Positions 10,135-63,736 of a DNA stretch of 64,000 nt are shown here, one piece after another (positions within the stretch are counted from its first letter, which is position 1; the number at the start of each line of letters is the position of its first letter). Origin of the DNA: Gemmatimonadota bacterium (lineage in GTDB: Bacteria > Gemmatimonadota > Gemmatimonadetes > Palauibacterales > Palauibacteraceae); NCBI GenBank assembly GCA_021295785.1, contig JAGWBR010000003.1, positions 65,236-129,235 of the forward strand, written 5' to 3'. Under the pieces are notes generated by a model that had not been told where the DNA came from, ran no database searches, and saw nothing but the letters and a program-made list of their open reading frames with translations. The translations under genes and the position numbers were made by a program.

Positions 10135-11516
10135 TCCGCGCCGCCGCCGTCCTGCTGGGAGAGGATCTCCCGGCGGTTGGCGGGCACCCCGTGCAGGGCC
10201 AGCCGGGTGATTCGCTGATCCACCACTTCCAGCACCTCCAGTTCGGCTCCGCCCAGCGGCACCCGGTCGCCCGGCTCCGGAATTCGTTTCAGGGCTCCGA
10301 TCACGTAACCCGCGGCGGTGTCGTAGGCCCCGTTCCCCTCGCTCTCCAGATCCAGCGCCTCGGCCAGGTCCGAGAAAGGAAAGCCGCCTTCAATGGACGC
10401 CGACCCGTCATCAGACCACCGAACGCCCTCTTCTTCTTCGTCGTGCTCGTCGTAAATCTCGCCGACGATCTCCTCCAGCAAGTCCTCGAGCGTAACCAAT
10501 CCGGCCGTCCCTCCGAACTCGTCCACGATCACTGCCATGTGGGTCTTGGCCCGGCGCATCTCGGCCAACAGGTCGTCCACGGGCTTTGCGCCCGGAACGA
10601 AGAAGGCCTCGCGCATCACGTCGCCGGCGGTGCTGGGCGGGGACGAGTGTTTCGCTTCTACCTCGCGTCCTTCCAGCACGTGCGGAATCAGGTCCTTGAC
10701 CACCACCACTCCTACAATATCGTCGAGCGACTCTCCCGTGACCGGGACGCGTGACCGGCCGGACTCGGCTGCTGCTCTCAGGATTTCCGAGATCCCGTCA
10801 TCGGCGGCCACCGCGATGATGTCGGGGCGCGGCGTCATCACCTCGCGGACGGCGGTTCGGGTCAGATCGAAGACGTTGGAGATCATTGCCTGTTCGTCTT
10901 CTTCCACCACCCCTTCGCGAGTGCCCAGATTGACGAGCATCTCAATCTCTTCGGGACTGTGTACCCGGTCTTCGCCGTGGGCGTCGGCGCGGGGCACCCG
11001 GAGCAGGTCCAGGAAACGCCTCGCCGATCCGTTCAGTATCCATATGCCGGGCCGCATCAGGCGGTTGAATGTCAACAGCGGGCCGGCCACGTACCTGCTG
11101 ACCGACTCCGGGCGGAGCAGCGCGACAGTCTTGGGGGCCAGTTCCCCGAGGACGATGTGCAGGTAGGTGATTATCAGGAACGCGATTGCGACCGCGGCCG
11201 AATGGAGCGCGACTTCGCTGGCCTGCACGCCAAGGAACGCCAGCAGGCTCTCGAGCGATGACGCCAGCGCGGGTTCACCGATCCACCCCAGCCCCAGTGA
11301 AGACAGTGTAATTCCGAGCTGAGTGCCCGAAATGCTACGGTCCAGGTCAGACTGGGCACGCTGAACGATTCGCGCAAGCCGGTCGCCTTCCTGGGCAAGC
11401 TGGTTGATGCGAGTGCGCCGGGCACCCACCAGAGCAAACTCGGCAGCAACGAAAAATGCGTTGGCGCCCACCAGGCCCAAGACCGCTGCAAAACGCAGCA
11501 CCAGCCCGAATTCCAT
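10131..11516 (-). CDS. CNNM/CorC/HlyC-family transporter (DUF21 + CBS pair + CorC_HlyC transporter-associated domain)
   Basis: ATG at 11516. N-terminal DUF21 membrane domain (LVLRFAAVLGLVGANAFFVAAEFALVGARRTRI), tandem CBS domains (VREVMTPRPDIIAV...; VVVKDLIPHV) and C-terminal CorC_HlyC (LVTLEDLLEEIVGEIYDEHDEEE...GGAELEVLEVVDQRI). Confidence 0.85.
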   Translation of the reverse strand: MEFGLVLRFAAVLGLVGANAFFVAAEFALVGARRTRINQLAQEGDRLARIVQRAQSDLDRSISGTQLGITLSSLGLGWIGEPALASSLESLLAFLGVQASEVALHSAAVAIAFLIITYLHIVLGELAPKTVALLRPESVSRYVAGPLLTFNRLMRPGIWILNGSARRFLDLLRVPRADAHGEDRVHSPEEIEMLVNLGTREGVVEEDEQAMISNVFDLTRTAVREVMTPRPDIIAVAADDGISEILRAAAESGRSRVPVTGESLDDIVGVVVVKDLIPHVLEGREVEAKHSSPPSTAGDVMREAFFVPGAKPVDDLLAEMRRAKTHMAVIVDEFGGTAGLVTLEDLLEEIVGEIYDEHDEEEEGVRWSDDGSASIEGGFPFSDLAEALDLESEGNGAYDTAAGYVIGALKRIPEPGDRVPLGGAELEVLEVVDQRITRLALHGVPANRREILSQQDGGGAE

Positions 11517-46007: not shown

Positions 46008-48407
46008 ATGTTTGCCGGACTTCGCGATCTTCGGCGCCGCGTGCGTGATACCACGGGGTTATTCGCCGAGCTGCACCGCCAGGGCGGGGCCATGGCCGAT
46101 TACCGCATCCTCGCCAAACGGTTCAATGTGGTTTTCGACCCGGAAATAATGGAAGAGGCACTGCTCCGGAAGCACGCCTGTTTGGGCAAGGGCAAGCAGC
46201 AACAGCGCACGCTCGACAACCTCTGCATCGTCACCGCCGACGGCGATGATCACAAGTGGCGCCGCAAACTGTTGCAGCCTTCCTTCACGCCGAATGCGCT
46301 GCGCGGCTACGCGGTGGCGATGGTTGAGGAGGCCGTTCGGCAGCGCGACTCGGTTCGTGACGGGCAGGAGCTCGACATCGATCACCTCAGCCACGAACTG
46401 TCCCTTTCCATCACGGCCCGGACGTTCTTCGGGGACGACCTGCACGTTGAGCCTGCGATCATGAAGGAAGCGCTGGCAGGTTACCGGTGGCGGGCCGTCT
46501 TGGGGCTGCTTCCCCTGGGGCGTGTGGTTAAGGCCCTGCCCCTGCCCCGCACCATCGCCAGCGAGAGGGCGATCAAGCGGCTGGACGACCGTGTTTACGA
46601 GGCCATCCGCAAAGCCCGGGCCAGCGCGCAGGAGCGCACTGATCTGATTGCCCACCTTGTGGCCGCCTGGGATGAGGGGCACCCTGCGGGGACATTTCCG
46701 GAAAGCGCGCTCAAAGACGAGGCTTTCGCGATCTTGGTGGCGGCTCACGAGAACACTGCGGTAACGCTGACTTGGTGCTTCTATCATCTGAGCCGTAACC
46801 CCGGGGCCCGCGAGCGCCTCGAAGCCGAGTTGGAAGAGGTACTTGGCCACCGTCTGCCGGACTTCGACGACGTTGAACGCCTGGTGTACACGAAGGCGGT
46901 AATGGACGAGACCATGCGACTGACCCCGACCGCAACGTATTTGGGTCGTACTGCGCTAGAGGATATTGAGTTGGGCGGTCGGCAAATCCCCAGACACTCT
47001 GTGACGCAGTTTTCGATCCGCACTCCGATGCGGGATGCGAAGTACTTCCCCCAACCGGAACGCTTCCGGCCCGAGCGCTGGCTCTCGTCCTCCGCCGACC
47101 TTCCGCGTCTGGCCTACGCGCCGTTCGGTGCCGGCAACCGGTTCTGCAGCGGGTTCAGGTTTGCCACCATCCAGATGGTACTGGCACTGGCGATCATTGC
47201 CCGGCGCTGGCGGTTTGAGCTGGTCTCCAAGGAAGATCCGGCAGTCGTTGATTTCATCATCTACAAATGCAAGGATGGTCTGCCGGTTGTGGCCCGCGAG
47301 CGGACAGGCAAGGCAGAAATTCCCGTTGGTGGCCCGCGAGCGAAACTTCAAACGAGGGGCCAGAAGGGCGGTCGCGTGACCGACATTCCGCCGGTTTTTG
47401 TCTTCAGCACCGGTCGGTGCGGCTCAACCATGGTCTCGGAGATGCTGAACCAGCACCCGGGCGTGCTCAGCATGTCCGAGTTCTTTGCGCAGCTCGGGGT
47501 GGCGGCTTTCACCCGGAAGAAAATCAGCGGCGACGAGATGTGGCGGATGTACAGCGAGCACACGCCCCGAATGCGGATCGTGACGTACGAGGGCCTGACC
47601 GAGGTGCTCTACCCGTTCACAGATCCCGTTGCCCGCTTCAACGCGGAAAACCTCCCGCCGATTCTGGCCGTGACGCTTCCTCACCTGACTGACAAGTACG
47701 AAGAACTGTTCGACGAGCTGGGTCCGGCCGTGCGCGCGATGTCCGACGCCACACCCGCCGACCATATCAGGGCGCTCTGCCAGTGGCTGTGCCAGCGACG
47801 GGGCTCAAGGGTGTGGGTGGAGCGTCATGGCGGCTCACTGATCCTTGCTTCGCGACTGCTGCGCTACTTCCCCGAGGCAAGGATTGTGCATATGTACCGG
47901 GACGGCCGTGAGACGGCGTTGTCGATGGCGAAACACCCTCCGTTCAAGCTGGCGCTGGCTCGGGCCAGGCGGGCCAGGCGTATTGGCCTTGACGCGTACC
48001 GTTTGCTCGAACGGTTCGAGCGGCGGGACCGGCTAACCCAGGCGATTCAGAAGGCCCAGTGGCGGATGACCGACCTGGACGCCTTCATGGCCGAGGAAGC
48101 GACCCTGCCCGAGGCGGCGGAACTCTGGAGCAAGATGATCGAAACCGGGCACCGGGTCTTCGGCCATTTCCCCCCCGACCGGCTGCTGAACCTGCGGTTC
48201 GAAGACATGCAACAGAATCCGGCTGAAGAGGCGCGTCGCCTCATCCGGTTCATTTCGCCGGAACTCGACGACGACGCTTGGGTAGCCGAGGTGGCGAAGA
48301 TCCCGCGCCAGACAGAATCGAAATTTGCGCAGCTGGACTCGGCCCAGCAGGCCGCGATCACGGCCGCGTGCCGCCCCGGGCTCGAGCGGCTGGGGTATTC
48401 GTCCTAG
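46008..48407 (+). CDS. Cytochrome P450 :: PAPS-dependent sulfotransferase fusion protein (799 aa)
   Basis: N-terminal approx. 430 aa has P450 signatures: I-helix VAAHENTAVTLTW, ExxR DETMRLTP, haem-binding loop FGAGNRFCSGFRFA (FxxGxRxCxG). C-terminal approx. 340 aa (from about 47388) has the sulfotransferase 5'-PSB P-loop PPVFVFSTGRCGSTMV and 3'-PB YRDGRETALSM (Sulfotransfer_3-like). Single uninterrupted frame; ATG at 46008. Confidence 0.85.
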   Translation: MFAGLRDLRRRVRDTTGLFAELHRQGGAMADYRILAKRFNVVFDPEIMEEALLRKHACLGKGKQQQRTLDNLCIVTADGDDHKWRRKLLQPSFTPNALRGYAVAMVEEAVRQRDSVRDGQELDIDHLSHELSLSITARTFFGDDLHVEPAIMKEALAGYRWRAVLGLLPLGRVVKALPLPRTIASERAIKRLDDRVYEAIRKARASAQERTDLIAHLVAAWDEGHPAGTFPESALKDEAFAILVAAHENTAVTLTWCFYHLSRNPGARERLEAELEEVLGHRLPDFDDVERLVYTKAVMDETMRLTPTATYLGRTALEDIELGGRQIPRHSVTQFSIRTPMRDAKYFPQPERFRPERWLSSSADLPRLAYAPFGAGNRFCSGFRFATIQMVLALAIIARRWRFELVSKEDPAVVDFIIYKCKDGLPVVARERTGKAEIPVGGPRAKLQTRGQKGGRVTDIPPVFVFSTGRCGSTMVSEMLNQHPGVLSMSEFFAQLGVAAFTRKKISGDEMWRMYSEHTPRMRIVTYEGLTEVLYPFTDPVARFNAENLPPILAVTLPHLTDKYEELFDELGPAVRAMSDATPADHIRALCQWLCQRRGSRVWVERHGGSLILASRLLRYFPEARIVHMYRDGRETALSMAKHPPFKLALARARRARRIGLDAYRLLERFERRDRLTQAIQKAQWRMTDLDAFMAEEATLPEAAELWSKMIETGHRVFGHFPPDRLLNLRFEDMQQNPAEEARRLIRFISPELDDDAWVAEVAKIPRQTESKFAQLDSAQQAAITAACRPGLERLGYSS

Positions 48408-48632: not shown

Positions 48633-49727
48633 ATGCCGCGCCTACGACGCCAAACTCCGAGGTGCGTTTTGCCCAACATCGATACGCCCCCCGTGTTTGT
48701 GGTCAGCACCGGGCGGTGCGGTTCTACGATGGTCTCCAACATGGCCCGGCTGCACCCCCGGATTCTTAGCGTGTCCGAGTTCCTGGCGTGCCTGGCCGAC
48801 AAGGCGCTTGTTGGATCCCATCTTGACGGCGAGGGGTTGTACGAGCGCTTCGCCAATCTGCGCCCCGTTGGGAAGGCCCTGCTCCGCAACAACCTGATCG
48901 TCAGCGAATACCTCTACCCCGTTGGGCAGCCCGGGTCCCGGTTCGGACCCCGGGACGTGCCGGCAATCATGGGAGCTACGCTACCCCACCTGTCGGACGA
49001 CCCGGAAGCCCTCTGGGACGAGCTTGTCCCCGTGATCCGGGCGCGTGGCCGGTACACCTTGCAGGCCCAGTACAGGTTCTTTTTTGAATGGCTGGCCGTC
49101 CGTTTCGGCAAGGATGTGTGGATTGAACGGTCCGGGGCTTCGATTCTCAGCGTCCCGACCCTGGCCAGGCTCTTCCCCGACGCCCGTTTCGTGCATGTCT
49201 ACCGCGACGGCCGCGACACGGCCATCTCCATGCGGGGCCACTACGTGTTCCGCATGTACCTGGGCATGGCGATGCGTGGCAGGCGCGTCGGCATGGATTC
49301 TTTCAGCCCGCGCAACTGGCCGGGGACCAGTCGTTGGGTGCCCTGGTTCACTCCTCTGGTGTTTCGGAGCTTTGACGCCAAAGCCGACAATTTCCGCGAC
49401 AATCCCGCCGCGCTGCACGAGTTCGGGTGGTTGTGGAGCAGTATGATCGAACGGGGTACCAGATACTTGGACGCGCTCCCGAAGGACCGCGTCCTCAACA
49501 TGCGCTTTGAGACTGTACTAGAATCCCCCAAAGATGAAATGCGGCGGTTTGCCGAATTCGTGGGCCCAGGATTCGTGGACGAAGACTGGCTTGAACGGAT
49601 CACCTTGCTTCCCCGCAAGAAGACACCCAGCTGGATGAAGTTGACTTCCGACGAGCATGCCCGCCTGGCCGCAGCATGCACACCTGGACAGCGGATTCTG
49701 GAATACGCCCAAGACGAGCAGTCGTGA
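48633..49727 (+). CDS. Sulfotransferase (Sulfotransfer_3-like), paralogue of the C-terminal domain of the upstream fusion
   Basis: MPRLRRQTPRCVLPNIDTPPVFVVSTGRCGSTMVSNM (5'-PSB) and ARFVHVYRDGRDTAISM (3'-PB). Collinear similarity to residues about 460-799 of the fusion through to the C-terminus (VLNMRFETVLESPKDEMRRF vs LLNLRFEDMQQNPAEEARRL). The ORF track starts at TTG 48606; ATG 48633 is preferred. Confidence 0.8.
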   Translation: MPRLRRQTPRCVLPNIDTPPVFVVSTGRCGSTMVSNMARLHPRILSVSEFLACLADKALVGSHLDGEGLYERFANLRPVGKALLRNNLIVSEYLYPVGQPGSRFGPRDVPAIMGATLPHLSDDPEALWDELVPVIRARGRYTLQAQYRFFFEWLAVRFGKDVWIERSGASILSVPTLARLFPDARFVHVYRDGRDTAISMRGHYVFRMYLGMAMRGRRVGMDSFSPRNWPGTSRWVPWFTPLVFRSFDAKADNFRDNPAALHEFGWLWSSMIERGTRYLDALPKDRVLNMRFETVLESPKDEMRRFAEFVGPGFVDEDWLERITLLPRKKTPSWMKLTSDEHARLAAACTPGQRILEYAQDEQS

Positions 49728-50932
49728 TCACTACCGAGACCCGCGAGTTGGCTCAGTATCCCGAGACGGGACCCGCATGTTACCGCGAGCGTTTCGACCG
49801 GACTGTTGCGAAGGTGGGGCCGGCACTGGCCAGAGAATACGTCATCCAGGCCCAGGTTGGCGACCCGCCGGCCGATGTCGCGGTGCAGGAGCTGCAGCCG
49901 CGCGGGGTGACCGAGATCAACCGGCTGATCCGGGCCGGAATGGACCGCGACAAGGAGACGCTGAAGGAAGCGCCGCGATCACTGATCGACCTCTTTGAAG
50001 AGGTCAACGAACCGCCCGACTGGTGGGATCCCAAGGTGGCACAGGCCGGGATAAGGGCGTTCCATGCTCATTCCGACCTGTTTATTCCGGCCCTCTTCGT
50101 GTCCACGGTCCAGAACGCCTCCACGCTGATCGCGAAGTCGTTCCATGCCACCGGGCGCGTCAATTCACAGTTCGGGCCCAGGCGAATTCGCCAAAACACG
50201 CGCCACTTTATCGAAATCATGATGCCGGGCGGCCTGGACCGCGAGGGAGAAGGCTGGCGCCTGTCGGTGCGTATTCGTCTGGTGCACGCCCAGATTCGGC
50301 GCTTGATCCTGGATTACGGCGAGTGGGACGAAGCGACTTTCGGGGCCCCGATCCACGCCGCTCATTTGGGGGTCGCGGCGGCCAATTTTTCGGCCGGAAT
50401 GCTGCGCCATGCGACCGCGCTGGGTGCATCCCTCAGTGCGGAAGCCCGCGAGGGGTTCATGCATGCCTGGCGATACGCGTCATTGCTGACTGGTATCCCT
50501 GAAAGACTCCTTTTCGAAGGGAACGAAGAGAAGACGCGAGAGCTGTGGCGGACCGCCCGGGCGATTGAACCTCCGCCGGGCGAAGAGTCACTCGTCATCG
50601 CCACGGCCCTGTTCGACGCTCTGCCGAGGATTGCGGGCAAGCGGGAGGGGAAGGAATTCGACCAGGTGCGCACCCACGCCGCCCGCGTAACCCGGGCGCT
50701 AATTGGCCGGAAAACTGCAGACCGCCTGGAGTTGGCCCGGGGCATGCCGGGGGCGATGGCGGCGATGCGAACGCGGCGCAAACTCACCGGGCAACTGCAT
50801 AAGGTTGCGCCGACGGTCGCCGCGGCATGGCGCGCATCGGCCTTTTCCTTCCTGTTGGATGCTGCGCTGCTCGATGACCTGAAGTACACGCTGCCCGACA
50901 AGCTCAAGGCCACCGAGGCTACCCCCTGGTGA
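49724..50932 (+). CDS. MpaB/DUF2236-family (latex-clearing-protein-like) putative oxygenase
   Basis: GTG at 49724 overlaps the sulfotransferase TGA (GTGA). Conserved DUF2236 blocks: PDWWDPKVAQAGIRAFHAHSDL, RRIRQNTRHFIEIMMPGG, WRLSVRIRLVHAQIRR. About 400 aa. Confidence 0.65.
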   Translation: MITTETRELAQYPETGPACYRERFDRTVAKVGPALAREYVIQAQVGDPPADVAVQELQPRGVTEINRLIRAGMDRDKETLKEAPRSLIDLFEEVNEPPDWWDPKVAQAGIRAFHAHSDLFIPALFVSTVQNASTLIAKSFHATGRVNSQFGPRRIRQNTRHFIEIMMPGGLDREGEGWRLSVRIRLVHAQIRRLILDYGEWDEATFGAPIHAAHLGVAAANFSAGMLRHATALGASLSAEAREGFMHAWRYASLLTGIPERLLFEGNEEKTRELWRTARAIEPPPGEESLVIATALFDALPRIAGKREGKEFDQVRTHAARVTRALIGRKTADRLELARGMPGAMAAMRTRRKLTGQLHKVAPTVAAAWRASAFSFLLDAALLDDLKYTLPDKLKATEATPW

Positions 50933-50976: not shown

Positions 50977-51342
50977 GTGCCGCCTGAACTCAAACGGTGC
51001 CCCCGTTATCCGTGGACCTGCGTGAACAGCCACGATACCGTCCGGCCAAGATGTACCATTGCCCCCTTCACGATCGCCGGGGACCCGTGGCAGGAATTCG
51101 GGCGCCTCGCGGAGATCGTGCGCCGTCAGCCCCGCACCAAAATCGATACTGTGACCCAGGACTATCTGAGTGCGCGGTTCAGGACCCGGATCGCCTTCCC
51201 CGACCGGCTCGAACTCGTCTTGTCCCCGGACCAAGGAGTGATTCACGTGCGCTCGATGTCGATTCTGGCCCCGATTTGGGACTTTGGAGCGAATCGCAGG
51301 AGGGTCGAGTCCCTACGTGTCCAGTTTGAAGGCGAACGCTAG
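50977..51342 (+). CDS. Small hypothetical protein, DUF1499-like (tentative)
   Basis: 121-aa ORF between the oxygenase and cysD. C-terminal ...[21 protein letters not shown] resembles the DUF1499 motif. Family assignment is from memory and not certain. Confidence 0.35.
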
Positions 51343-51350
51343 GCCCGCCC

Positions 51351-52253
51351 GTGCGTGACGATCGCGTCCTGGCTGCCCTTGAGGACGAGGCGATCGAGAT
51401 CATCCGCGAGGGAGTGGCCGCGGCTTCCCGCCCCGTCATGCTCTATTCGATCGGCAAAGACTCCTCGGTCTTGCTTCGCCTGGCGCAGAGGGCTTTCTGG
51501 CCGGCCCCGCTGCCGATGCCTCTGCTGCACGTTGACACGACCTGGAAGTTCCGGGAGATGATCCAGTTCCGGGACCGCACGGCTGCCGAGGACGGGATCA
51601 AACTGATCGTGCACACCAATCAAGAAGGCGTGCAGGCTGGCGTCACGCCGTTCACGCATTCTTCGTCGCGCTATACCGAGGTGATGAAGACCGAGGCGCT
51701 GCGGCAGGCGCTCGACGCCGGCGGCTATGACATGATCTTCATCGGCGCCCGCCGGGACGAAGAGAAGTCGCGCGCCAAGGAGCGGATTTTCTCGTTTCGG
51801 AATGCGGCCCACCAGTGGGAGCCGCGGGCCCAGCGCCCCGAACTCTGGAACCTCTACAACACCCGGCTCGGGGCTGGCGAGTCGCTGCGGGTTGCCCCGA
51901 TGTCCAACTGGACCGAGGCCGACATCTGGCGCTACATCGCCGCCCGGGAAATCCCGATCGTGTCGCTTTACCATGCGGCCGAGCGGCCGGTGGTGGAGCG
52001 CGAGGGACAGCTCATCATGGTGGACGACGACCGCATGCCCCTGAATCCCGGCGAGGCGCCTGAGTCCCGGTTGGTGCGTTTTCGGACCCTGGGCTGCTAT
52101 CCCCTGACCGCCGCGGTCGAGAGCACGGCGACCACGCTGGACGCGATTATCGCCGAGACCCTGGCCGCCGACGGTTCGGAGCGCGAGGGACGCCTGATCG
52201 ACCACGATGACGAGGCCTCGATGGAGAAGAAGAAGCGGGACGGCTACTTCTGA
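51351..52253 (+). CDS. cysD: Sulfate adenylyltransferase subunit 2
   Basis: GTG start. [18 protein letters not shown] is the PAPS-reductase-like PP-loop. Motifs [50 protein letters not shown]. 300 aa. Confidence 0.95.
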
Positions 52254-54109
52254 TGGGCCGAGAAGTAACCTCCCCAACCTCCAACCGGCTTGCCCCACTC
52301 CGCCTTGTGCTTTGCGGGAGCGTGGACGACGGCAAGAGCACCTTGATCGGGCGAATGCTGTACGACAGCAACCAAGTCTTCGCCGATCAGCTCGGCAAAG
52401 TCGAAGCTGACTCTCGGCGGTGGGGCACGCAAGGCGAGAACATCGACCTCGCGCTGCTCCTGGACGGTTTGCAGGACGAACGCGAGCAGGGCATCACGAT
52501 CGATGTCGCCTACCGCTCTTTGGAGACGCCGCGGCGGCGGTTCATTGTTGCCGATGTGCCCGGCCACGAGCAGTACACGCGCAACATGGCGACGGGTGCC
52601 TCCACCGCGCAGGTGGCCATAATCCTGGTCAACGCGCGCCGGGGGATTCTGCCGCAAACGGCCCGCCACACGCGGATCGCGGCCATGTTCGGGGTGCGCC
52701 ATGTGGTGCTGGCGGTCAACAAGATGGACCTGGTCGATTGGGACCAGGCAACGTTTGAGGCGCTCGAAGAAGAGTACCGGGAGCTGACGGACGACGTCGG
52801 CGTGCCCGAGGTGGTGGCCATGCCGGTGTCCGGCCTGACCGGCGACAACCTCACGCGCCGCTCGGACAACATGCCCTGGTACGACGGTCCGACCCTGCTG
52901 GAGCACCTCGAAACCGTGCAAGTGACAGACCCGGGCGATGATGCCCCGTTCAGGATGCCGGTCCAGTACGTGAACCGCCCCCATTCGGAGTTCCGCGGGT
53001 ACTGCGGCCGCGTGGCTTCCGGGACGGTTAAACCCGGGCAGCGGATCCGGGTGGTGCCCGGGAGCAGCGAGTCACCGGTGAAATCGGTTCTGGTTGGCCG
53101 GGGCGAGGTCGAGCGCGCGGGCCGCGGCGATTCGGTCACGCTGACCTTTTCCACCGAGATTGACGTGACACGCGGGGACGTGATCGCCGACGCCGAAGAC
53201 GCACCGGCAGTCTCGGACCAGTTCCGCGCCTCGATCCTGTGGATGGGCGAGCAGCCGTTGGTGGCCGGGCGCCTGTACCTGCTCAAGATGCACACCCGCG
53301 AGGTCACGGCGAAGGTCACGTCCATTCGTCACTCGGTGGAGGTGCGCACCGGGGAGCGGCTTGCCGCCAAGCAGCTTGAGCTGAATGAGATCGGCGTGGT
53401 GAATTTGGCCACTTCCCGGCCCGTCCCGTTTGCCCCGTTCGAGGAGAACGGGAAGCTGGGCGGGTTCATCTTGGTGGACCGGGGCAACAACCGAACGGTT
53501 GCGGCAGGCACGATCAGTTACGCGCTCATGCGGGCAGCCAACGTGACGTGGCAACAATTCGACATCAGCCGCGAGGTCCGGGCGCAGCTCAAGCGGCAGG
53601 ATGCCCGGTGTCTGTGGTTCACGGGCCTGTCCGCGTCGGGCAAGTCCACGGTGGCGAATCTGCTGGAGCGACGCCTCTACATCGAAGGGCGGCACACCTA
53701 CCTGCTGGACGGCGACAACGTGCGCCACGGGTTGAACGCCGACCTGGGCTTCACCGAGATCGACCGTACCGAGAACATCCGGCGCGTGGCCGAGGTTGCG
53801 CGTTTGATGGTAGACGCCGGGTTGATCGTGATTGTGTCGTTCATCAGCCCGTTCCGGGCCGACCGCGAGATGGCGCGGGGGCTTTTCGAACCCGGGGAAT
53901 TTCTTGAGGTATTCATTGATGCGTCCGCCGAAGAGTGTGCCCGGCGCGACCCCAAGGGGCTCTACGCCAAGGCCCTGCGCGGCGAGATCAAGAACTTCAC
54001 GGGGATCAGCAGTCCGTACGAGCGGCCAGAGGAGCCCGAGATCCACCTCAGCACCGAGGAATTGTCGCCCGAAGACTGCGTCGAGGAGCTCCTCCGCAAA
54101 CTGAATTAG
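52253..54109 (+). CDS. cysNC: Bifunctional sulfate adenylyltransferase subunit 1 / adenylylsulfate (APS) kinase
   Basis: ATG overlaps the cysD stop (TGATG). N-terminal GTPase LRLVLCGSVDDGKSTLIGRML...DVPGHEQY...NKMD (CysN). C-terminal APS kinase CLWFTGLSASGKSTVANLL...LDGDNVRHGLNADLGFTE...SFISPFRADR (CysC). Confidence 0.95.
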   Translation: MGREVTSPTSNRLAPLRLVLCGSVDDGKSTLIGRMLYDSNQVFADQLGKVEADSRRWGTQGENIDLALLLDGLQDEREQGITIDVAYRSLETPRRRFIVADVPGHEQYTRNMATGASTAQVAIILVNARRGILPQTARHTRIAAMFGVRHVVLAVNKMDLVDWDQATFEALEEEYRELTDDVGVPEVVAMPVSGLTGDNLTRRSDNMPWYDGPTLLEHLETVQVTDPGDDAPFRMPVQYVNRPHSEFRGYCGRVASGTVKPGQRIRVVPGSSESPVKSVLVGRGEVERAGRGDSVTLTFSTEIDVTRGDVIADAEDAPAVSDQFRASILWMGEQPLVAGRLYLLKMHTREVTAKVTSIRHSVEVRTGERLAAKQLELNEIGVVNLATSRPVPFAPFEENGKLGGFILVDRGNNRTVAAGTISYALMRAANVTWQQFDISREVRAQLKRQDARCLWFTGLSASGKSTVANLLERRLYIEGRHTYLLDGDNVRHGLNADLGFTEIDRTENIRRVAEVARLMVDAGLIVIVSFISPFRADREMARGLFEPGEFLEVFIDASAEECARRDPKGLYAKALRGEIKNFTGISSPYERPEEPEIHLSTEELSPEDCVEELLRKLN

Positions 54110-58965: not shown

Positions 58966-61299
58966 TCACATCCTTACGATGAGATTACCGCCGGCAGGGT
59001 CGCCAGGCAACGCGCCGGCCGGCACGGGGCCCGACCCGTCGTCCGCCGGTGGCGATGCCCTGCCGATGACGGCGGCACCCCGGTCACCGGCTTCGCGGAG
59101 CCTGGCGACGACGGCCGAGGCCTGCCCGGGGGCCACTCCGAACAGAAGACCGCCCGATGTCTGGGGGTCAAACAGGAGTTCGGAGCGCACCGCGCGGAGT
59201 GGATCGCCTGCCCCGCCGCCCTGCTCCCCGGTTTCCGGGTCCACATTCCGGACAAAACGGATCTTGGCACGGAGGCGGGCGTTGTCAGGATGGAACGTGC
59301 TCCGGACTCCGGTCGCCAACAAAGGAAGCGCACCCGGCAAGGCGGGGAGAGACGCCAACCCAACCGTAACAGTGACGCCCGACGCCTCGGCCAGGGTCAT
59401 CAAGTGGCCAGCCAAGCCGAACCCGGTCACGTCGGTGGCTCCCGTCGCGCCCGCATCCCGTGCAACCCGCGCCGCGTTCCGGTTGGTGCGCACCATGGAC
59501 TCAAGCGCCGCCTGGAGCCACGCCCCGCGCGCCAGACCCAGCATGTCGCCGCGCAACACGACCCCGGTCCCCAGCGGTTTGGTGAGGATGATCTCCTGCC
59601 CGGGCAGGATTCCGCTGACGAGCAACGGCTCCTCCGCGCCCAAGAAACCCTCCACGTGGAATCCGACCGAGGTTTGCGATCCGACCACGGTGTGGCCGCC
59701 CACCAGAACGGTCCCGGTGGACGAGAGGACCTCCCGCGCCCCGCTCATTATTTGGTGCAACATCTCTTGCCGGTCGTCCGGTGTCGCCTGTTCGGGCACT
59801 GACACGACCGCCTGGGCAACTCCTGGCCGAACTCCCTTGGCCAGCACGTCCGAAACGGCGTTGGCCGCGGCAACACGCCCGAGCGTGTACGGGTCGTCCG
59901 TGAACTGGCGCACAATATCAACGCTGGCCACGACCGCCTCGCCGCCGGGAGTGCGGTAGGCGGCGGCGTCTTCCAACGGGCTCAGGCAAGGCACTATCGA
60001 GCCGGCCGCCCCCTTGGGGGAACCGAGCCGGTCGAGCACTGATTCCAGCTCGGCACGACCGAGTTTCGCCGCGCATCCACCGCAGGTCTCGTTCATGGAA
60101 GCCAGCATCGCAGCGGGACGCCGGAACTGCCGAGCCACCGCGCCGTCGGGGCCCAACACTTGGAAGCGCTTCATGAAGCGGCGGTCGATAAGGGCCTTCA
60201 GGCGCCAGGCCAGCGCACCCCCAAACACCAGTGACCCCTTTGCGCCGACCGCGCTGCCGTCACCCAGGTTGAGGAGGGTGAGGAACCGCCGCTGCGGCCG
60301 GTAGCGGGCGAACCTGCCGGACGGGCCGCCCGATCCGCCACGCAGCAAGGTCCCGGCGGCGCGGCGCAGGTTCTTGGCGAGCACTGGTCCCTGACGCACC
60401 GCGTACACACCGGCCTTGGGCACCCACGGGGCGACCTCCAACGCGGCGCAGTCCCCCACCGCGAACACCCTCGGATGCCCTCTGGCCTGGAGGGTCGGCC
60501 CCACCAAGACAAATCCGGCCGAATCCACCGCGAGTTCGCCCGGATCGAACCCGGCGGGCGGCGCGGCACCGGTGGTCCACAGCACGACCCTGGCTCGCTC
60601 AAACGCGGGAGTCGGCTCAGACGACGACCGGGACCACTCCAAACTCACGCCGTCGCGAGAGACCGCGCGAACCCGGCAGGACGTCAGAACCCTGATCCCC
60701 CGCCGCCGGGCTTCGGCCCGAATCCGGCGGGCGACCTGCTCCGGGTATCCCGGGAGAATGCGGTCCGAGGCCTCGATGAGAGTCGCCCGGCCCGAGCGAG
60801 CCGCAACCGCGAAGGCCAGTTCCACCCCCCCCGCCCCCGCACCGACCACTACCGCACTGGCGGGCTCAGACGGGTCAAGCGCACTCAGCCTCGCCGCCAG
60901 AGCGTCCCCAAACCGACCGAGCGGCCGCGTGGGAACCACATGCTCGGCAGCGCCCGGAACATCCATACCGCGGACGGAGGACCCGATATCGAAAGACACC
61001 AAGTCATATCGCAGTGCGGGTCGATCGGCCAGCAAGATCCGGCGACCGGCCAGGTCAACGCCCCGTGCCGCGGACAAAACCACGCGTGCCCCCGCCATCC
61101 GGGCCAGGGGCACGATGTCGATTTCCAATTGTTCGGCGGAGTACTGCCCGGCCACCAACCCGGGCACCATGCCCGAATAGACGGCGACCGGCACATCCAC
61201 TACCACGGTCACCCGCACCGCCGCCGGCAGCGACCGCATGACAATGCTTTTCAACACCTGCACGTGGGCGTGACCACCACCCACCAGCACCAGGTCCAC
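58966..61299 (-). CDS. selD: Fusion protein: FAD-dependent pyridine nucleotide-disulfide oxidoreductase (NADH-dehydrogenase-like) :: selenide, water dikinase (selenophosphate synthetase)
   Basis: GTG start. VDLVLVGGGHAHVQVL...AVVVGAGAGGVELA...VFAVGDCAA are the two Rossmann FAD/NAD motifs. From about aa 440: MNETCGGCAAKLG (SelD N-terminal Cys loop, Cys not Sec), then the AIR-synthase-like fold (VVASVDIV...DPYTLGRVAAANAVSDVLAKG; TDVTGFGLAGHL). Confidence 0.85.
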   Translation of the reverse strand: MDLVLVGGGHAHVQVLKSIVMRSLPAAVRVTVVVDVPVAVYSGMVPGLVAGQYSAEQLEIDIVPLARMAGARVVLSAARGVDLAGRRILLADRPALRYDLVSFDIGSSVRGMDVPGAAEHVVPTRPLGRFGDALAARLSALDPSEPASAVVVGAGAGGVELAFAVAARSGRATLIEASDRILPGYPEQVARRIRAEARRRGIRVLTSCRVRAVSRDGVSLEWSRSSSEPTPAFERARVVLWTTGAAPPAGFDPGELAVDSAGFVLVGPTLQARGHPRVFAVGDCAALEVAPWVPKAGVYAVRQGPVLAKNLRRAAGTLLRGGSGGPSGRFARYRPQRRFLTLLNLGDGSAVGAKGSLVFGGALAWRLKALIDRRFMKRFQVLGPDGAVARQFRRPAAMLASMNETCGGCAAKLGRAELESVLDRLGSPKGAAGSIVPCLSPLEDAAAYRTPGGEAVVASVDIVRQFTDDPYTLGRVAAANAVSDVLAKGVRPGVAQAVVSVPEQATPDDRQEMLHQIMSGAREVLSSTGTVLVGGHTVVGSQTSVGFHVEGFLGAEEPLLVSGILPGQEIILTKPLGTGVVLRGDMLGLARGAWLQAALESMVRTNRNAARVARDAGATGATDVTGFGLAGHLMTLAEASGVTVTVGLASLPALPGALPLLATGVRSTFHPDNARLRAKIRFVRNVDPETGEQGGGAGDPLRAVRSELLFDPQTSGGLLFGVAPGQASAVVARLREAGDRGAAVIGRASPPADDGSGPVPAGALPGDPAGGNLIVRM

Positions 61300-61339: not shown

Positions 61340-63736
61340 TCAGAACGTCAACTGGTAGGCCAGGCGGATGTCGCGGCCCCGCATCGGTGCAATGTCCTTG
61401 ATGTACGAAGTGTGCATGCGTCCTTCCGCGTTGGTCAGATTCCGTCCGGACAGGACGATCCCGTGCGACATTCTGCCCGAAATGATCGTGTACATGGCCC
61501 GCACGTCGAACATGGTGAAACCGTCGGTCTCGGTCTCGAAATCCGCGAGGCGGTCCTGTGCCGCCGTGGTCCGCATTCCGAACCGGCCGGCCAGGGCGCC
61601 CGACTCAAATGCGAGCCCCGCTCCAAACCGGGTCGGGGTGATGCGGGGCAAGGGATCACCCGTATCCGAGTTCTCCGCTCGCACCATATCCATGGACGCG
61701 TCCAGCGTCACCCGTGCGCCGGGGTGGTTGTGGTAGATGTCATATTCGGCCTGGGCCTCCACTCCGGTGAAACTGGCACCGGCCTGGGACCACAGCACGA
61801 CGGGCAAATGGTCTTCTTCTTCGCCGGTGTACGCCTGATGAATGAAACCGTCAAACGACGTGGTGAAGAAGTTGACCCTGCCGCGGAGCCCCTCGGTAGT
61901 CAGGCGCAGAGACGCATCGAAAGTAAGGCCAATCTCCGGCTCAAGAGTGGCGTCGCCGGTCTCAAACACCAGCGACGCAAGGTGGGGTCCGTCGGCGTAA
62001 AGTTCCTCGGCAGTGGGAAGTTTGGCCGAACGGCTGGCGTTCACCAGGAAGGAAAAATTGTCGGTCAAGGGCAACCGACCGCCCACCGAAGCCGAAAACC
62101 CGCTGTGCACCCGTTCGGTTCCCGGTGCCTTGTTGATCCGTTGTTCGAACCTGGCACCCACTTCCATGCGAAACTGGTCGGTTACCGGGAGGGTCTCAAA
62201 CACAAACGCTCCCCAACCCTGCGTGACGTACGGTGGCACGAAGGCCTCATTGCCCACCGGCTCAAAATCCTTGTCGCCGGCCTGGAACCCGATTGAGCCA
62301 CTCGAACCACTGCCCCAGAACGAATGTTGGAGCTCGACGCGGCCTTCGATTTCGTTGTTGTAGAACTCGGTTTCGATTTCGCGCTCGTCGCCTTCGTCGA
62401 TGACCTCGAAGTGCTGATAGTCCGCGTACCCGACCCGGGCGCTCACAACCTCGTTATCACCCAGCTGCCATTCGGCCTCCATGTCCACGCGCCGCTGCTG
62501 GAGGTCAACCGACACCCCTGCTTCTTCTTCGTCGCCGTGATCGTCTTCGTCTTCCTCTTCCATCCCCTCTTCTTCGCCTTCCTCGTGGGCGTGGCCGGGC
62601 ACACCGTAGTCGCTGTCATAAGCAGACCAGGAGACGCCGATGAAGCCGCGGTCAACCACGTATGACGCGCCCAGTGCCATCCGGCTCGTCTCTACCCCCG
62701 AATTGTGGAGGGTGCCTTCGTCTTCCTCCTCCATCCCCTCTTCTTCGCCCTGTTCATCGTGGTGGGCTTCGGCTTCCCCGGGAATGGCGTATTCACCCGC
62801 GTTGCGCACGAGTCCGCTCGCATGAAAAGCCAGGTTGCCGCTGCCGGCGTCCAACCGGCCGGCGAAGTTTGTCTGGTCGTCCACCGTGCCGGCACGAGCG
62901 CTGAAGAAACCGTTCACCCCGTGCGTCGGGACGCCCCTCGGAATTCGACCGTCCTCAACGTTCACGACGCCCCCGATCGCCGACGAGCCGTACCGAAGCG
63001 TGGCCGGTCCCCGGAGAATTTCGACCTGGTCCGCCAGACCCGCCTCAACGCTGGGCGCGTGGTCGGGGCTTGAAGCCGAAGCGTCTCCAGTGCCCACTCC
63101 CGACTCGAGAATACGCACACGGTCACCACCAAGGCCCCGGATAATCGGGCGCGAGCTGCCTCCGTAGGCAGTGGAAGACACTCCGAGTCGATCGCCAAGG
63201 GCATCGCCAAGCCCGCCCTGGCCCGCACTCCTCAGGTCGTCGCCCTCAACCGCGTCGGCTGCCATGAGAAAGTCAGAAGCGACGCCCCCCGCCACCTCCA
63301 GGACCAGCGGTGCCTCATGGTAGACCCGCGAGACGGTCACCATGACCTCCGTGGTCTCTCCCCCGGCAACCGTGGCGGTTTCAAACCCCCTTCCCCACTG
63401 GTGGGAATTCGCCAGAATCGTGTACGTGCCACCAAGCAGGCCCTCAAACCGGGCTGCGTCGCCCGCCTCTGCGTGACGGGTGACGGGTCTCCGCTGACCG
63501 CCGTGCCCGTCGCCGAGCTGCAGTGCGACCGATACGTCGGCGGCGACAGATTCGCCATCCGCATTGACAACACTAACAACAAGAACGCCCTCCCCGCGGG
63601 TCTCCTGCGCAAACAAACCGACCGGAAGGGCAGCGCCCGCAATGGCCGCGGCAACCGCAATCGCCGCGGCGACAATCAACCGATCCAGAGACCCCTCGGT
63701 ATGAACTCTTGCTATTGTCTTGAACCTCATCATCAC
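61340..63736 (-). CDS. TonB-dependent outer-membrane receptor with duplicated His/Glu-rich insert
   Basis: Signal peptide AAAIAVAAAIAGAALPVGLFAQE. Carboxypeptidase-regulatory-like N-terminal domain, plug and 22-strand-barrel periodicity. C-terminal ...RGRDIRLAYQLTF (TonB_dep_Rec terminal motif). Internal acidic repeats HHDEQGEEEGMEEEDEG and HAHEEGEEEGMEEEDEDDHGDEEE. Confidence 0.85.
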   Translation of the reverse strand: MMMRFKTIARVHTEGSLDRLIVAAAIAVAAAIAGAALPVGLFAQETRGEGVLVVSVVNADGESVAADVSVALQLGDGHGGQRRPVTRHAEAGDAARFEGLLGGTYTILANSHQWGRGFETATVAGGETTEVMVTVSRVYHEAPLVLEVAGGVASDFLMAADAVEGDDLRSAGQGGLGDALGDRLGVSSTAYGGSSRPIIRGLGGDRVRILESGVGTGDASASSPDHAPSVEAGLADQVEILRGPATLRYGSSAIGGVVNVEDGRIPRGVPTHGVNGFFSARAGTVDDQTNFAGRLDAGSGNLAFHASGLVRNAGEYAIPGEAEAHHDEQGEEEGMEEEDEGTLHNSGVETSRMALGASYVVDRGFIGVSWSAYDSDYGVPGHAHEEGEEEGMEEEDEDDHGDEEEAGVSVDLQQRRVDMEAEWQLGDNEVVSARVGYADYQHFEVIDEGDEREIETEFYNNEIEGRVELQHSFWGSGSSGSIGFQAGDKDFEPVGNEAFVPPYVTQGWGAFVFETLPVTDQFRMEVGARFEQRINKAPGTERVHSGFSASVGGRLPLTDNFSFLVNASRSAKLPTAEELYADGPHLASLVFETGDATLEPEIGLTFDASLRLTTEGLRGRVNFFTTSFDGFIHQAYTGEEEDHLPVVLWSQAGASFTGVEAQAEYDIYHNHPGARVTLDASMDMVRAENSDTGDPLPRITPTRFGAGLAFESGALAGRFGMRTTAAQDRLADFETETDGFTMFDVRAMYTIISGRMSHGIVLSGRNLTNAEGRMHTSYIKDIAPMRGRDIRLAYQLTF
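62520..62790 (-). repeat. Intragenic tandem duplication (period about 180 bp) encoding His/Glu-rich acidic loop segments of the TonB-dependent receptor
   Basis: Plus-strand strings ...tcttcctcttccatcccctcttcttcgcc... (about 62545-62580) and ...tcttcctcctccatcccctcttcttcgcc... (about 62725-62760) are near-identical. Each encodes EEGEEEGMEEEDE. Confidence 0.6.

What the first reader, a model, noticed from the sequence alone, without database searches (positions are those of the whole stretch)
49724..50932. MpaB/DUF2236 (latex-clearing-protein-like) oxygenase translationally coupled to the sulfotransferase
Its GTG start overlaps the sulfotransferase TGA (gtcGTGAtc), indicating co-translation with the sulfation enzymes. 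Bacterial DUF2236 members are almost all uncharacterised. The characterised relatives, fungal MpaB and the rubber oxygenase Lcp, are haem-dependent oxygenases acting on isoprenoid double bonds. Its presence alongside a P450 suggests two sequential oxidative tailoring steps on a lipid or isoprenoid scaffold.
Basis: partly seen in the sequence, partly recalled or inferred. Interest (0 to 1): 0.55.

Follow-up and report, generated by a model that had tools for sequence, protein, structure and literature searches.

The report
Haem oxygenase gene paired with sulfotransferases
The gene is real and encodes a probable haem oxygenase of the rubber-cleaving (Lcp/MpaB) family; related uncultured bacteria from more than ten lineages keep it next to a sulfate-adding enzyme, which points to an undescribed "oxidise and sulfate" pathway whose substrate is unknown.

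Summary
The ORF at 49724-50932 (402 aa) starts with a GTG that overlaps the TGA of the upstream sulfotransferase (GTGA). It matches Pfam PF09995 (MpaB/Lcp catalytic domain) at E=1.9e-13.

A confident AlphaFold model matches Lcp structures. Lcp's haem ligand His198, plus Arg164, Arg195, Arg202 and Trp211, are conserved. Lys167, Thr168 and Glu148 are not. The protein has no signal peptide or membrane anchor, so it looks cytoplasmic.

Comparative data add the main new point. In 65 of 80 related loci, all from MAGs spanning more than ten phyla or classes, a sulfotransferase lies within 10 kb. In 48 of 77 it sits directly downstream, and in 36 of those its start overlaps the oxygenase stop by 7 nt. 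P450, CysD/CysNC and DUF1499 genes recur. No scaffold-building genes were seen in the loci inspected.

In the window, the usual partner sulfotransferase is fused to the P450, a fusion seen only in this lineage.

Best reading: a cytoplasmic haem b oxygenase, probably alkene-cleaving, in a horizontally spread oxidise-and-sulfate module. The substrate is unknown; an isoprenoid lipid is inference. No description was found in the searchable literature.

The parts
49724..50932 (+). MpaB/Lcp-family (PF09995) putative haem b oxygenase, 402 aa, predicted cytoplasmic. This is the finding itself.
   Evidence: Pfam E=1.9e-13. Profile against PDB hits Lcp K30 (5O1L/5O1M) at E~2e-14. AF2 model has pLDDT 88.7 and pTM 0.90 and is all-helical. 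Foldseek to 5O1M/5O1L gives E~1e-7 and TM 0.60-0.68; t-anethole oxygenase 8S1J is next. No TM segment or signal peptide.
49724..49727 (+). GTGA start/stop overlap between sulfotransferase ST-B and the oxygenase.
   Evidence: The same gene boundaries were called on L001.
50285..50287 (+). Codon for His188, the predicted proximal haem ligand, within the motif SVRIRLVHAQIRR.
   Evidence: Aligns with Lcp His198. His in 77 of 78 relatives; flanking Arg185 and Arg192 (Lcp Arg195 and Arg202) in 78 of 78.
50180..50206 (+). Distal-helix motif RRIRQNTRH (residues 153-161). Arg154 corresponds to Lcp Arg164. Gln157 replaces Lys167 and Asn158 replaces Thr168. His161 is an extra near-invariant residue.
48669..49727 (+). 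PAPS-type sulfotransferase ST-B (352 aa from TTG 48669; alternative starts ATG 48633 and TTG 48606).
   Evidence: Pfam Sulfotransfer_3 E=5.5e-18 and Sulfotransfer_1 E=6.5e-09. 65-68% identical to the sulfotransferase beside P450-CysD-CysNC in Longimicrobiales loci. AF2 pLDDT 94.9; nearest structures are CurM ST, TPST and Stf9/Stf1, with TM only 0.4-0.5.
46008..48407 (+). Cytochrome P450 fused to sulfotransferase ST-A (799 aa). P450 spans about residues 19-411 and carries the FGAGNRFCSG haem-Cys motif. A roughly 30-aa linker follows. The sulfotransferase domain starts at IPPVFVFSTGRCGST.
   Evidence: Pfam p450 E=2.9e-61 and Sulfotransfer_3 E=5.4e-21; sequence. The ST domain is about 50% identical to the sulfotransferase that follows the oxygenase in most other genomes. 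The fusion was found only in a 99%-identical twin.
50977..51342 (+). DUF1499 protein (121 aa), function unknown.
   Evidence: Pfam PF07386 E=3.6e-22. Present within 10 kb in 21 of 80 related loci, often convergent right after the sulfotransferase.
51351..52253 (+). CysD, sulfate adenylyltransferase small subunit.
   Evidence: NCBIfam NF009214, 477 bits against a cut-off of 413.
52253..54109 (+). CysN-CysC fusion (sulfate adenylyltransferase large subunit plus APS kinase), the PAPS supply. Its ATG overlaps the CysD TGA by 1 nt.
   Evidence: NCBIfam NF004035, 925.7 bits against a cut-off of 715. Junction shown.

Best explanation
The ORF encodes a soluble, cytoplasmic haem b-dependent oxygenase of the MpaB/Lcp globin-fold family. 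It is the signature enzyme of a small, horizontally spread 'oxidise and sulfate' gene module.

In the window the module runs P450::ST-A, ST-B, oxygenase, DUF1499, CysD, CysNC. CysD and CysNC make PAPS. The sulfotransferases move sulfate from PAPS to a hydroxyl on the substrate. The P450 probably supplies a hydroxyl, as Cyp128 is proposed to do for Stf3 in mycobacterial sulfomenaquinone synthesis.

The MpaB-like enzyme most likely uses O2 at a His188-ligated haem to cleave a C=C bond of the same hydrophobic scaffold. Because the loci whose gene content was inspected hold no scaffold-building genes, that scaffold is probably a common cell lipid or a host-derived compound. An isoprenoid is the leading guess.

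Stop/start overlaps keep the oxygenase and a sulfotransferase co-produced.

Shown here: the gene, its start region, family membership, conservation of the haem-binding residues, the fold, and the conserved genomic coupling to sulfotransferase and PAPS genes.

Inferred: haem binding, alkene cleavage, order of steps, and substrate class.
For: Family and fold:
- PF09995, E=1.9e-13.
- Lcp K30 in PDB at E~2e-14, with His198, Arg164, Arg195, Arg202 and Trp211 aligned to His188, Arg154, Arg185, Arg192 and Trp201. These are kept in 77-78 of 78 relatives.
- AF2 pLDDT 88.7; Foldseek TM 0.60-0.68 to Lcp, then t-anethole oxygenase 8S1J.

Chemistry of the family: the characterised members all cleave C=C bonds.
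- Lcp (PMC5522427).
- PgMpaB, with essential Arg/Arg/His residues (PMC6900556).
- Nro1, plus the bacterial alkene-cleaving haem oxygenases that its paper cites (PMC12724181).

Coupling:
- Sulfotransferase within 10 kb in 65 of 80 loci.
- Directly downstream on the same strand in 48 of 77. In 36 of those, an ATG/GTG/TTG embedded in the oxygenase's ...P-W-stop gives a 7-nt overlap.
- P450 in 17 of 80 loci, CysD in 15, CysNC in 19, DUF1499 in 21.
- The same gene set appears in different orders in Gemmatimonadota, Nitrospirales and Binatia.
- Flanking genes are unrelated housekeeping genes, with no terpene synthase or PKS seen.

Other:
- Tight operon spacing in the window.
- The P450-plus-sulfotransferase logic has a precedent in the cyp128-stf3 operon (PMC6469627).
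- The distal helix is unusually basic (RRIRQNTRH), which would suit an anionic substrate such as a sulfate ester.
Against: - No biochemical data exist for any member of this clade.
- Alkene cleavage gives carbonyls, not the hydroxyl a sulfotransferase needs. In the many genomes with only oxygenase plus sulfotransferase, the acceptor hydroxyl must already exist, or the oxygenase must do different chemistry.
- Lcp's Thr168 (2% activity when mutated) is Asn here. The proposed base Glu148 aligns with Ser/Ala, and Lys167 is Gln.
- Unlike Lcp, the distal helix is strongly basic; whether the substrate channel as a whole is hydrophobic was not examined.
- The sulfotransferase fold search gives no clue to the acceptor.
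- No ferredoxin or reductase for the P450 was seen nearby.
- Nothing in the loci points specifically to isoprenoids.
Confidence: 0.5

Rival explanations
1. The MpaB-like haem protein is a mono-oxygenase (hydroxylase or epoxidase) rather than a C=C-cleaving dioxygenase. It would install the hydroxyl that the co-translated sulfotransferase then sulfates, in the same way a P450 feeds a sulfotransferase.
For: - It explains why oxygenase plus sulfotransferase alone is the commonest form of the module (48 of 77 loci), since cleavage would leave no acceptor hydroxyl.
- Both haem enzymes are found stop/start-coupled to, or fused with, both sulfotransferase paralogues (window; L083; L086), as if they were interchangeable suppliers.
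- The catalytic residues Thr168 and Glu148 of Lcp are replaced.
Against: - The characterised relatives all cleave alkenes (PMC5522427, PMC6900556, PMC12724181; the PDB title of 8S1J).
- A His-ligated globin-type haem is a poor hydroxylation catalyst compared with thiolate-ligated P450. This point is my own knowledge.
Confidence: 0.2
2. The module is catabolic or detoxifying rather than biosynthetic. It would cut and sulfate a host- or environment-derived hydrophobic compound (a sterol, carotenoid or prenylquinone) for use or export.
For: - No scaffold-building genes in the loci inspected.
- The clade seems concentrated in MAGs of lineages typical of marine sponge or coral consortia, such as Entotheonella, SAR202, Palauibacter and SB06xx bins.
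- Cross-phylum identities of up to 86-90% suggest niche-driven gene sharing.
- Lcp and Nro1 are themselves catabolic.
- A 3-beta-HSD-like dehydrogenase accompanies the module in some loci.
Against: - A dedicated PAPS supply (CysD/CysNC) is costly for catabolism.
- No beta-oxidation or uptake genes are conserved with the module.
- The host association itself is inferred from MAG names, not from sample metadata.
Confidence: 0.15
3. The sulfotransferase is an 'activating' enzyme. Sulfate would serve as a leaving group whose elimination creates the alkene, which the MpaB-like oxygenase then cleaves. No stable sulfate ester would accumulate.
For: - The closest structural neighbours of ST-B include CurM ST and the olefin-synthase ST, as well as retinol dehydratase and LGS1. 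In these, sulfation is followed by elimination or cyclisation. This rests on the PDB titles and on my own knowledge.
- It would explain the strict pairing and the gene order.
Against: - The structural matches are weak (TM 0.26-0.54) and include ordinary sulfotransferases (TPST, Stf1, Stf9) at similar scores.
- Two sulfotransferase paralogues plus a P450 are hard to fit into this scheme.
Confidence: 0.07
4. The protein is a non-catalytic haem-globin sensor or regulatory subunit, responding to O2, NO or redox state, that controls the sulfotransferase.
For: - Lcp's core is structurally close to globin-coupled sensors (PMC5522427).
- Stop/start overlap is compatible with formation of a stoichiometric complex.
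- An extra invariant His161 on the distal helix could give bis-His, sensor-like coordination.
Against: - It has the full-length catalytic-domain architecture, with N- and C-terminal caps like Lcp.
- The catalytically essential Arg164 equivalent is kept.
- No output domain is present.
- No member of PF09995 is known to be a sensor.
Confidence: 0.05

Closest known systems
Latex clearing protein Lcp K30 (Streptomyces sp. K30; PDB 5O1L/5O1M), rubber oxygenase
   Same: - Same Pfam domain (PF09995).
- 3/3-globin core with N- and C-terminal helical caps (Foldseek TM 0.60-0.68).
- Proximal His198, essential Arg164, structural Arg195 and Arg202, and L-helix Trp211 are all conserved.
   Different: - Only 16-17% identity.
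- No Tat or signal peptide, so cytoplasmic rather than secreted.
- The distal ligand Lys167 is Gln, Thr168 is Asn, and the Glu148 position is Ser/Ala.
- Very basic distal helix.
- The genomic partner is a sulfotransferase rather than rubber-catabolism genes.
Fungal MpaB / PgMpaB (mycophenolic acid farnesyl-chain cleavage)
   Same: - Same Pfam family.
- Works inside a small-molecule pathway on a prenylated aromatic, not on a polymer.
- The essential Arg...Arg-x4-His pattern reported for PgMpaB (PMC6900556) fits the R154...R183-x4-H188 pattern here. This match is by pattern only; no alignment was made.
   Different: - MpaB is anchored in the ER membrane, whereas this protein has no membrane segment.
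- There is no prenyltransferase or polyketide synthase in the neighbourhood.
- Direct sequence comparison with MpaB was not possible with the tools.
Bacterial MpaB-family alkene oxygenases: Nro1 of Gordonia sp. J1A, and t-anethole oxygenase (PDB 8S1J)
   Same: - Bacterial members of the same superfamily that cleave C=C bonds (PMC12724181).
- 8S1J is the next-best structural match (E=0.011, probability 1.0).
   Different: - These proteins are shorter (about 300-323 aa).
- Nro1 is membrane-bound.
- TM to 8S1J is only 0.38-0.49.
- No sulfotransferase association is reported for them.
Mycobacterium tuberculosis sulfomenaquinone (S881) operon cyp128-stf3
   Same: A small operon in which a P450 is proposed to hydroxylate a housekeeping isoprenoid lipid (MK-9(H2)) and a PAPS sulfotransferase then sulfates it. 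It contains no scaffold genes (PMC6469627). The window's P450::ST-A fusion embodies the same logic.
   Different: - That operon is not described as containing an MpaB/Lcp-like oxygenase.
- Orthology of the P450 or the sulfotransferases to Cyp128 or Stf3 was not tested.
- The window's P450 is closest to CYP170A1, CYP97A3 and CYP3A in PDB.

Membership tests
PF09995 MpaB/Lcp catalytic domain (DUF2236) | Significant match to the family HMM above the curated cut-off | tested here: met
   51.5 bits against a cut-off of 23, E=1.9e-13, profile positions 10-221 of 231. All 120 listed homologues also carry PF09995.
PF09995 MpaB/Lcp catalytic domain (DUF2236) | Proximal haem-ligand histidine (Lcp His198, 100% conserved among 495 Lcps per PMC5522427) | tested here: met
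   His188 aligns with His198 and is kept in 77 of 78 relatives.
PF09995 MpaB/Lcp catalytic domain (DUF2236) | Globin-type all-helical fold with N- and C-terminal caps | tested here: met
   AF2 pLDDT 88.7 and pTM 0.90. Foldseek 5O1M/5O1L E~1e-7, TM 0.60-0.68 over 369-389 alignment columns.
PF09995 MpaB/Lcp catalytic domain (DUF2236) | Binds haem b (Soret spectrum) | not testable with these tools
   Needs purified protein.
Lcp-type rubber oxygenase | Essential distal Arg164 | tested here: met
   Arg154, kept in 77 of 78 relatives.
Lcp-type rubber oxygenase | Distal Thr168 (2% activity when mutated) and distal ligand Lys167 | tested here: not met
   Asn158 (78 of 78) and Gln157 (72 of 78) occupy these positions. 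Lys167 is only 59% conserved among Lcps (PMC5522427).
Lcp-type rubber oxygenase | Glu148 as the base in the substrate channel | tested here: inconclusive
   The HMM alignment places Ser139 here (Ala in 48 and Ser in 18 of 78 relatives). This stretch of the alignment is weakly conserved, and no structural superposition was available.
Lcp-type rubber oxygenase | Secreted (Tat signal), acts on extracellular polyisoprene | tested here: not met
   No hydrophobic N-terminal segment or twin-arginine leader; maximum 19-residue hydropathy 1.48. The neighbours are cytoplasmic PAPS enzymes.
Fungal MpaB | Membrane (ER) anchoring and a prenylated polyketide substrate made by clustered genes | tested here: not met
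   No TM segment. No prenyltransferase or PKS in the window operon or in the related loci inspected.
Cyp128/Stf3-type 'hydroxylate then sulfate' lipid module | P450 and PAPS sulfotransferase genes adjacent in one operon, without scaffold genes | tested here: met
   P450::ST fusion at 46008-48407 and ST-B at 48669-49727. P450-ST pairs with a 4-nt overlap in L083.
Cyp128/Stf3-type 'hydroxylate then sulfate' lipid module | Orthology to Cyp128 and Stf3; menaquinone as substrate | not tested
   The reference sequences could not be fetched. The P450's best PDB hits are CYP170A1, CYP97A3 and CYP3A4.

The most novel reading that the evidence does not exclude
The oxygenase-sulfotransferase pair, with optional P450, second sulfotransferase, DUF1499 and CysDNC, may be a mobile cassette shared among sponge or coral symbionts. 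On this reading it makes or remodels sulfated isoprenoids, such as prenyl-hydroquinone sulfates, sterol sulfates or sulfated carotenoid fragments. Sponges are known for compounds of this kind, and their genetic origin is unknown (PMC5618424 argues for a bacterial source and names P450 and sulfotransferase steps). The MpaB-like enzyme would then be the first cytoplasmic bacterial member of the family to act on an anionic, sulfated substrate.
Probability: 0.15. Interest if true: 0.8.

Novelty: new variant of a known kind. Interest (0 to 1): 0.6.

Why it matters
The MpaB/Lcp family has very few characterised members, and all of them cleave C=C bonds. This clade is distinct in three ways. It is cytoplasmic. 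It is almost always stop/start-coupled to a PAPS sulfotransferase. And it appears to have moved between very different bacterial lineages.

If the module makes a sulfated lipid, it would give a genetic handle on bacterial sulfated metabolites, possibly those of marine invertebrate holobionts. It would also provide a compact two-gene system for biocatalysis, combining alkene cleavage with sulfation.

The P450-sulfotransferase fusion in the window is a natural 'hydroxylate then sulfate' enzyme that was not seen anywhere else among the proteins scored in a database of 5.8 billion clusters.

Tried and rejected
- NCBIfam gave no hit for the oxygenase or for ST-B.
- Literature searches on DUF2236, PF09995, MpaB with sponge, sulfotransferase with sponge symbionts, and sulfotransferase with Lcp/MpaB found no description of this pairing.
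  - The 'MpaB' hits in PMC10028931 look like a shared gene name only (my inference; the paper was not opened).
  - The P422 preprint only lists DUF2236 as a known haem family.
- A search for accession prefixes, meant to confirm the sample source, returned unrelated genome notes.
- The promoter and terminator scan was at shuffle expectation.
- DUF1499 has no solved relative.
- The sulfotransferase profile and fold searches gave only distant, non-diagnostic matches: TPST, CurM ST, Stf1 and Stf9.
- P0002 was not on record for a context look-up.
- ATG 49676 was considered as the start and set aside on the GC3 profile and the gene call.
- Chance adjacency of the oxygenase and sulfotransferase genes was rejected on the comparative counts.
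Full report

Yes. The window reads ...cagtcGTGAtcact... at 49719-49732. The GTG at 49724 opens a 402-codon ORF ending at 50932. The TGA at 49725-49727 ends a Sulfotransfer_3/Sulfotransfer_1 protein.

A 99%-identical metagenome scaffold (L001, ENA ERZ23495240) was annotated independently with the same two gene boundaries.

Three in-frame starts are possible: ATG 49676, GTG 49724 and TTG 49748. Third-position GC in the oxygenase frame is low (0.33-0.53) until about 49700, while the sulfotransferase frame stays high until about 49670. This favours the GTG. Conservation across homologues begins at residue 17, so the start cannot be far downstream.

The surrounding genes are tightly packed on the + strand:
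- P450::sulfotransferase, 46008-48407.
- A gap of about 260 nt.
- Sulfotransferase ST-B, 48669-49727.
- A 4-nt overlap.
- The oxygenase, 49724-50932.
- A 44-nt gap.
- DUF1499, 50977-51342.
- An 8-nt gap.
- CysD, 51351-52253.
- A 1-nt overlap.
- CysN-CysC, 52253-54109.

**2. What is the protein?**

Pfam gives one family, PF09995 (MPAB_Lcp_cat), at 51.5 bits against a cut-off of 23. A profile of 21 homologues finds only the rubber oxygenase Lcp K30 in the PDB (5O1L/5O1M, E~2e-14).

In that alignment the motif SVRIRLVHAQIRR matches Lcp's VKTRMVHAAVRHL. The residue correspondences are:
- His188 = His198, the proximal haem ligand. It is 100% conserved among 495 Lcps (PMC5522427).
- Arg185 = Arg195 and Arg192 = Arg202, both structural.
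- Arg154 = Arg164. Lcp has no activity when this is mutated.
- Trp201 = Trp211, the Lcp-specific L-helix.

Across 78 relatives these residues are kept in 77-78 sequences.

Three Lcp features are not kept:
- Lys167 is Gln157.
- Thr168 is Asn158.
- The Glu148 position is Ser or Ala, although that part of the alignment is weak.

An additional near-invariant His161 sits one helical turn after Gln157. The distal helix reads RRIRQNTRH, much more basic than Lcp's DRIAKTARL.

The AlphaFold model built from 46 sequences is confident (pLDDT 88.7, pTM 0.90) and all-helical. Foldseek against the PDB returns the Lcp structures first (E~1e-7, TM 0.60-0.68). The t-anethole oxygenase 8S1J follows (E=0.011, probability 1.0).

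The protein has no signal peptide or membrane segment. This sets it apart from secreted Lcp and from membrane-bound MpaB and Nro1.

**3. What do relatives show?**

The protein database returned 246 hits. The best 120 are all 50-70% identical PF09995 proteins of about 390-405 aa without names.

In the 50%-clustered library the whole close clade collapses to a single representative. There are 93 clusters at E<=1e-30 and 2149 at E<=1e-3.

A scan of 185,579 species-representative genomes found 100 encoding stretches. The 80 loci kept are all from MAGs. Their lineages are:
- Longimicrobiales and other Gemmatimonadota
- Rhodothermales
- Binatia
- Nitrospirales
- Nitrospinota
- Vicinamibacterales
- Bryobacterales
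- Dehalococcoidia and SAR202
- Alphaproteobacteria and Gammaproteobacteria
- Entotheonella
- Latescibacterota

The names (Entotheonella, SB06xx bins, Palauibacter, SAR202 bin87) suggest marine sponge or coral consortia. Searches are consistent with that. I could not check sample metadata, so this remains an inference.

Gene-neighbourhood counts came from tblastn of the window's proteins against the loci:

| Gene within 10 kb | Loci (of 80) |
|---|---|
| Sulfotransferase | 65 |
| DUF1499 | 21 |
| CysNC | 19 |
| P450 | 17 |
| CysD | 15 |

The window's other neighbours (DUF1028, amidohydrolase, BNR protein) occur in none of the 80 loci. Only weak AMP-ligase matches (23-35% identity) appear, in six.

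Unbiased clustering of all ORFs gave the same picture. In 48 of 77 loci a sulfotransferase lies directly downstream on the same strand.

The oxygenase ends ...Pro-Trp-stop, written CC[A/G]TGGT[A/G]A. In 36 of those 48 loci the embedded ATG, GTG or TTG is in the sulfotransferase's frame, giving a 7-nt overlap.

There are two sulfotransferase paralogues, about 39% identical to each other:
- ST-A is the usual downstream partner. It is about 50% identical to the sulfotransferase domain fused to the window's P450.
- ST-B is the one overlapped by the oxygenase start in the window. It is 65-68% identical to the sulfotransferase that follows a P450 and precedes CysD/CysNC in Longimicrobiales.

Related arrangements include:
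- Oxygenase-P450-ST-B-CysD-CysNC (L083).
- CysD-CysNC-oxygenase-ST-A with a convergent P450 (Binatia).
- Oxygenase-ST-A with a convergent DUF1499 (Rhodothermales).
- DUF1499-STAS-oxygenase-P450-permease-sulfotransferase (L086).
- Oxygenase-ST-SDR(3-beta-HSD-like)-CysD-CysNC-second oxygenase paralogue in Palauibacter.

In the loci whose gene content I inspected, the flanking genes are unrelated housekeeping genes. They include no terpene synthase, prenyltransferase or PKS.

Oxygenase identities of 78-90% occur between complete chromosomes assigned to different phyla. Examples are Vicinamibacterales against Pseudomonadales at 86%, and Binatia against Nitrospirales at 79%. This indicates horizontal spread.

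**4. How does it most likely work?**

The characterised members of the superfamily all use haem and O2 to cleave C=C bonds:
- Lcp acts on polyisoprene (PMC5522427).
- MpaB acts on a farnesyl chain, with essential Arg, Arg and His residues (PMC6900556).
- Nro1 acts on nitrile rubber, and its paper cites a class of bacterial alkene-cleaving haem oxygenases (PMC12724181).
- The structural neighbour 8S1J is an anethole oxygenase.

With the haem-binding residues intact, alkene cleavage is the best-supported chemistry for this protein.

The genomic context fixes the pathway theme. CysD/CysNC make PAPS, one or two sulfotransferases use it, and a P450 often joins them. The absence of scaffold genes suggests a common cell lipid or an external compound as the substrate.

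The closest precedent for the P450-sulfotransferase part is the cyp128-stf3 operon. There a P450 is proposed to hydroxylate menaquinone MK-9(H2) and Stf3 sulfates it (PMC6469627). The window's P450::ST-A fusion is a physical version of that logic.

The basic distal helix would suit a sulfated, anionic substrate, which would place sulfation before cleavage. That is speculation.

One weakness is that cleavage yields carbonyls, not a hydroxyl. The commonest two-gene form of the module therefore needs a pre-existing hydroxyl, a reductase encoded elsewhere, or different chemistry. The 3-beta-HSD/SDR genes in some loci could act as such a reductase. This keeps the hydroxylase rival alive.

**5. Comparison with known systems and novelty**

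The protein is a member of PF09995. It is not an Lcp-type rubber oxygenase: it has no secretion signal, and Thr168 and Lys167 are not kept. It is not an MpaB-type membrane enzyme either.

Within the library I could search, no paper describes an MpaB/Lcp-like oxygenase coupled to a sulfotransferase. I rate it a new variant of a known kind: a distinct cytoplasmic clade defined by conserved coupling to PAPS-dependent sulfation.

**6. Verdict**

Interest is 0.6. The gene on its own is an ordinary family member. The conserved, horizontally spread oxygenase-sulfotransferase module and the unique P450::sulfotransferase fusion are unexpected and can be tested directly.

Noticed in passing
window 46008-48407 (+): Cytochrome P450 fused in frame to a sulfotransferase (799 aa, with a linker of about 30 aa). 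Among the hits from a database of 5.8 billion protein clusters, only a 99%-identical twin carries both domains. All other P450 homologues are standalone, at 440-496 aa.
   Followed up: partly
L003-L082, around position 11150-11210 in each locus: The oxygenase's conserved C-terminus ...P-W-stop (CC[A/G]TGGT[A/G]A) contains the partner sulfotransferase's start codon. This gives a 7-nt overlap in 36 loci. The window keeps CCCTGGTGA at 50924-50932 although no sulfotransferase follows, which looks like a relic of the ancestral arrangement.
   Followed up: yes
L019 vs L037; L011 vs L014; L025 vs L020 (oxygenase genes at 10001-11200): Oxygenase proteins are 78-90% identical between complete chromosomes assigned to different phyla or classes: Acidobacteriota against Gammaproteobacteria, Binatia against Nitrospirales, and Binatia against Dehalococcoidia. 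This implies recent horizontal transfer. Many of the MAG names are typical of sponge or coral symbionts.
   Followed up: partly
L002 6819-9221 (-): In a Longimicrobiales chromosome the module's P450 is fused to an N-terminal NAD-dependent epimerase/3-beta-HSD-like domain (800 aa). It lies next to ST-B, CysD, CysNC and DUF1499.
   Followed up: no
L087/L088 1782-9245: Candidatus Palauibacter ramosifaciens carries two MpaB-like paralogues. They bracket a block of sulfotransferase, 3-beta-HSD-like SDR, CysD and CysNC in one same-strand array.
   Followed up: no
L002 9335-12930; L086 2847-7765: A stand-alone STAS-domain protein lies immediately upstream of the oxygenase, and a Xan_ur_permease-family transporter lies downstream of it (adjacent in L002, after the P450 in L086). 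Together they could be a split sulfate-type permease feeding the module.
   Followed up: no
window 50977-51342 (+) and 21 related loci: A DUF1499 protein of unknown function recurs with the module. It is often convergent, immediately after the sulfotransferase. It has no solved relative.
   Followed up: partly
window 58966-61299 (-): A 777-aa ORF combines a pyridine-nucleotide-disulfide oxidoreductase domain with AIRS/AIRS_C domains. It may be a selenophosphate-synthetase-like fusion (my reading of the domains, not tested). It lies next to a TonB-dependent receptor at 61340-63736.
   Followed up: no
L028, L038, L041, L044, L045, L051, L057, L070: A sub-clade of the oxygenase lacks the adjacent sulfotransferase. 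By eye the conserved neighbour ORFs look like ABC-transporter components and a thiamine-diphosphate enzyme, but they were not run against Pfam. This may mark a different functional context.
   Followed up: no
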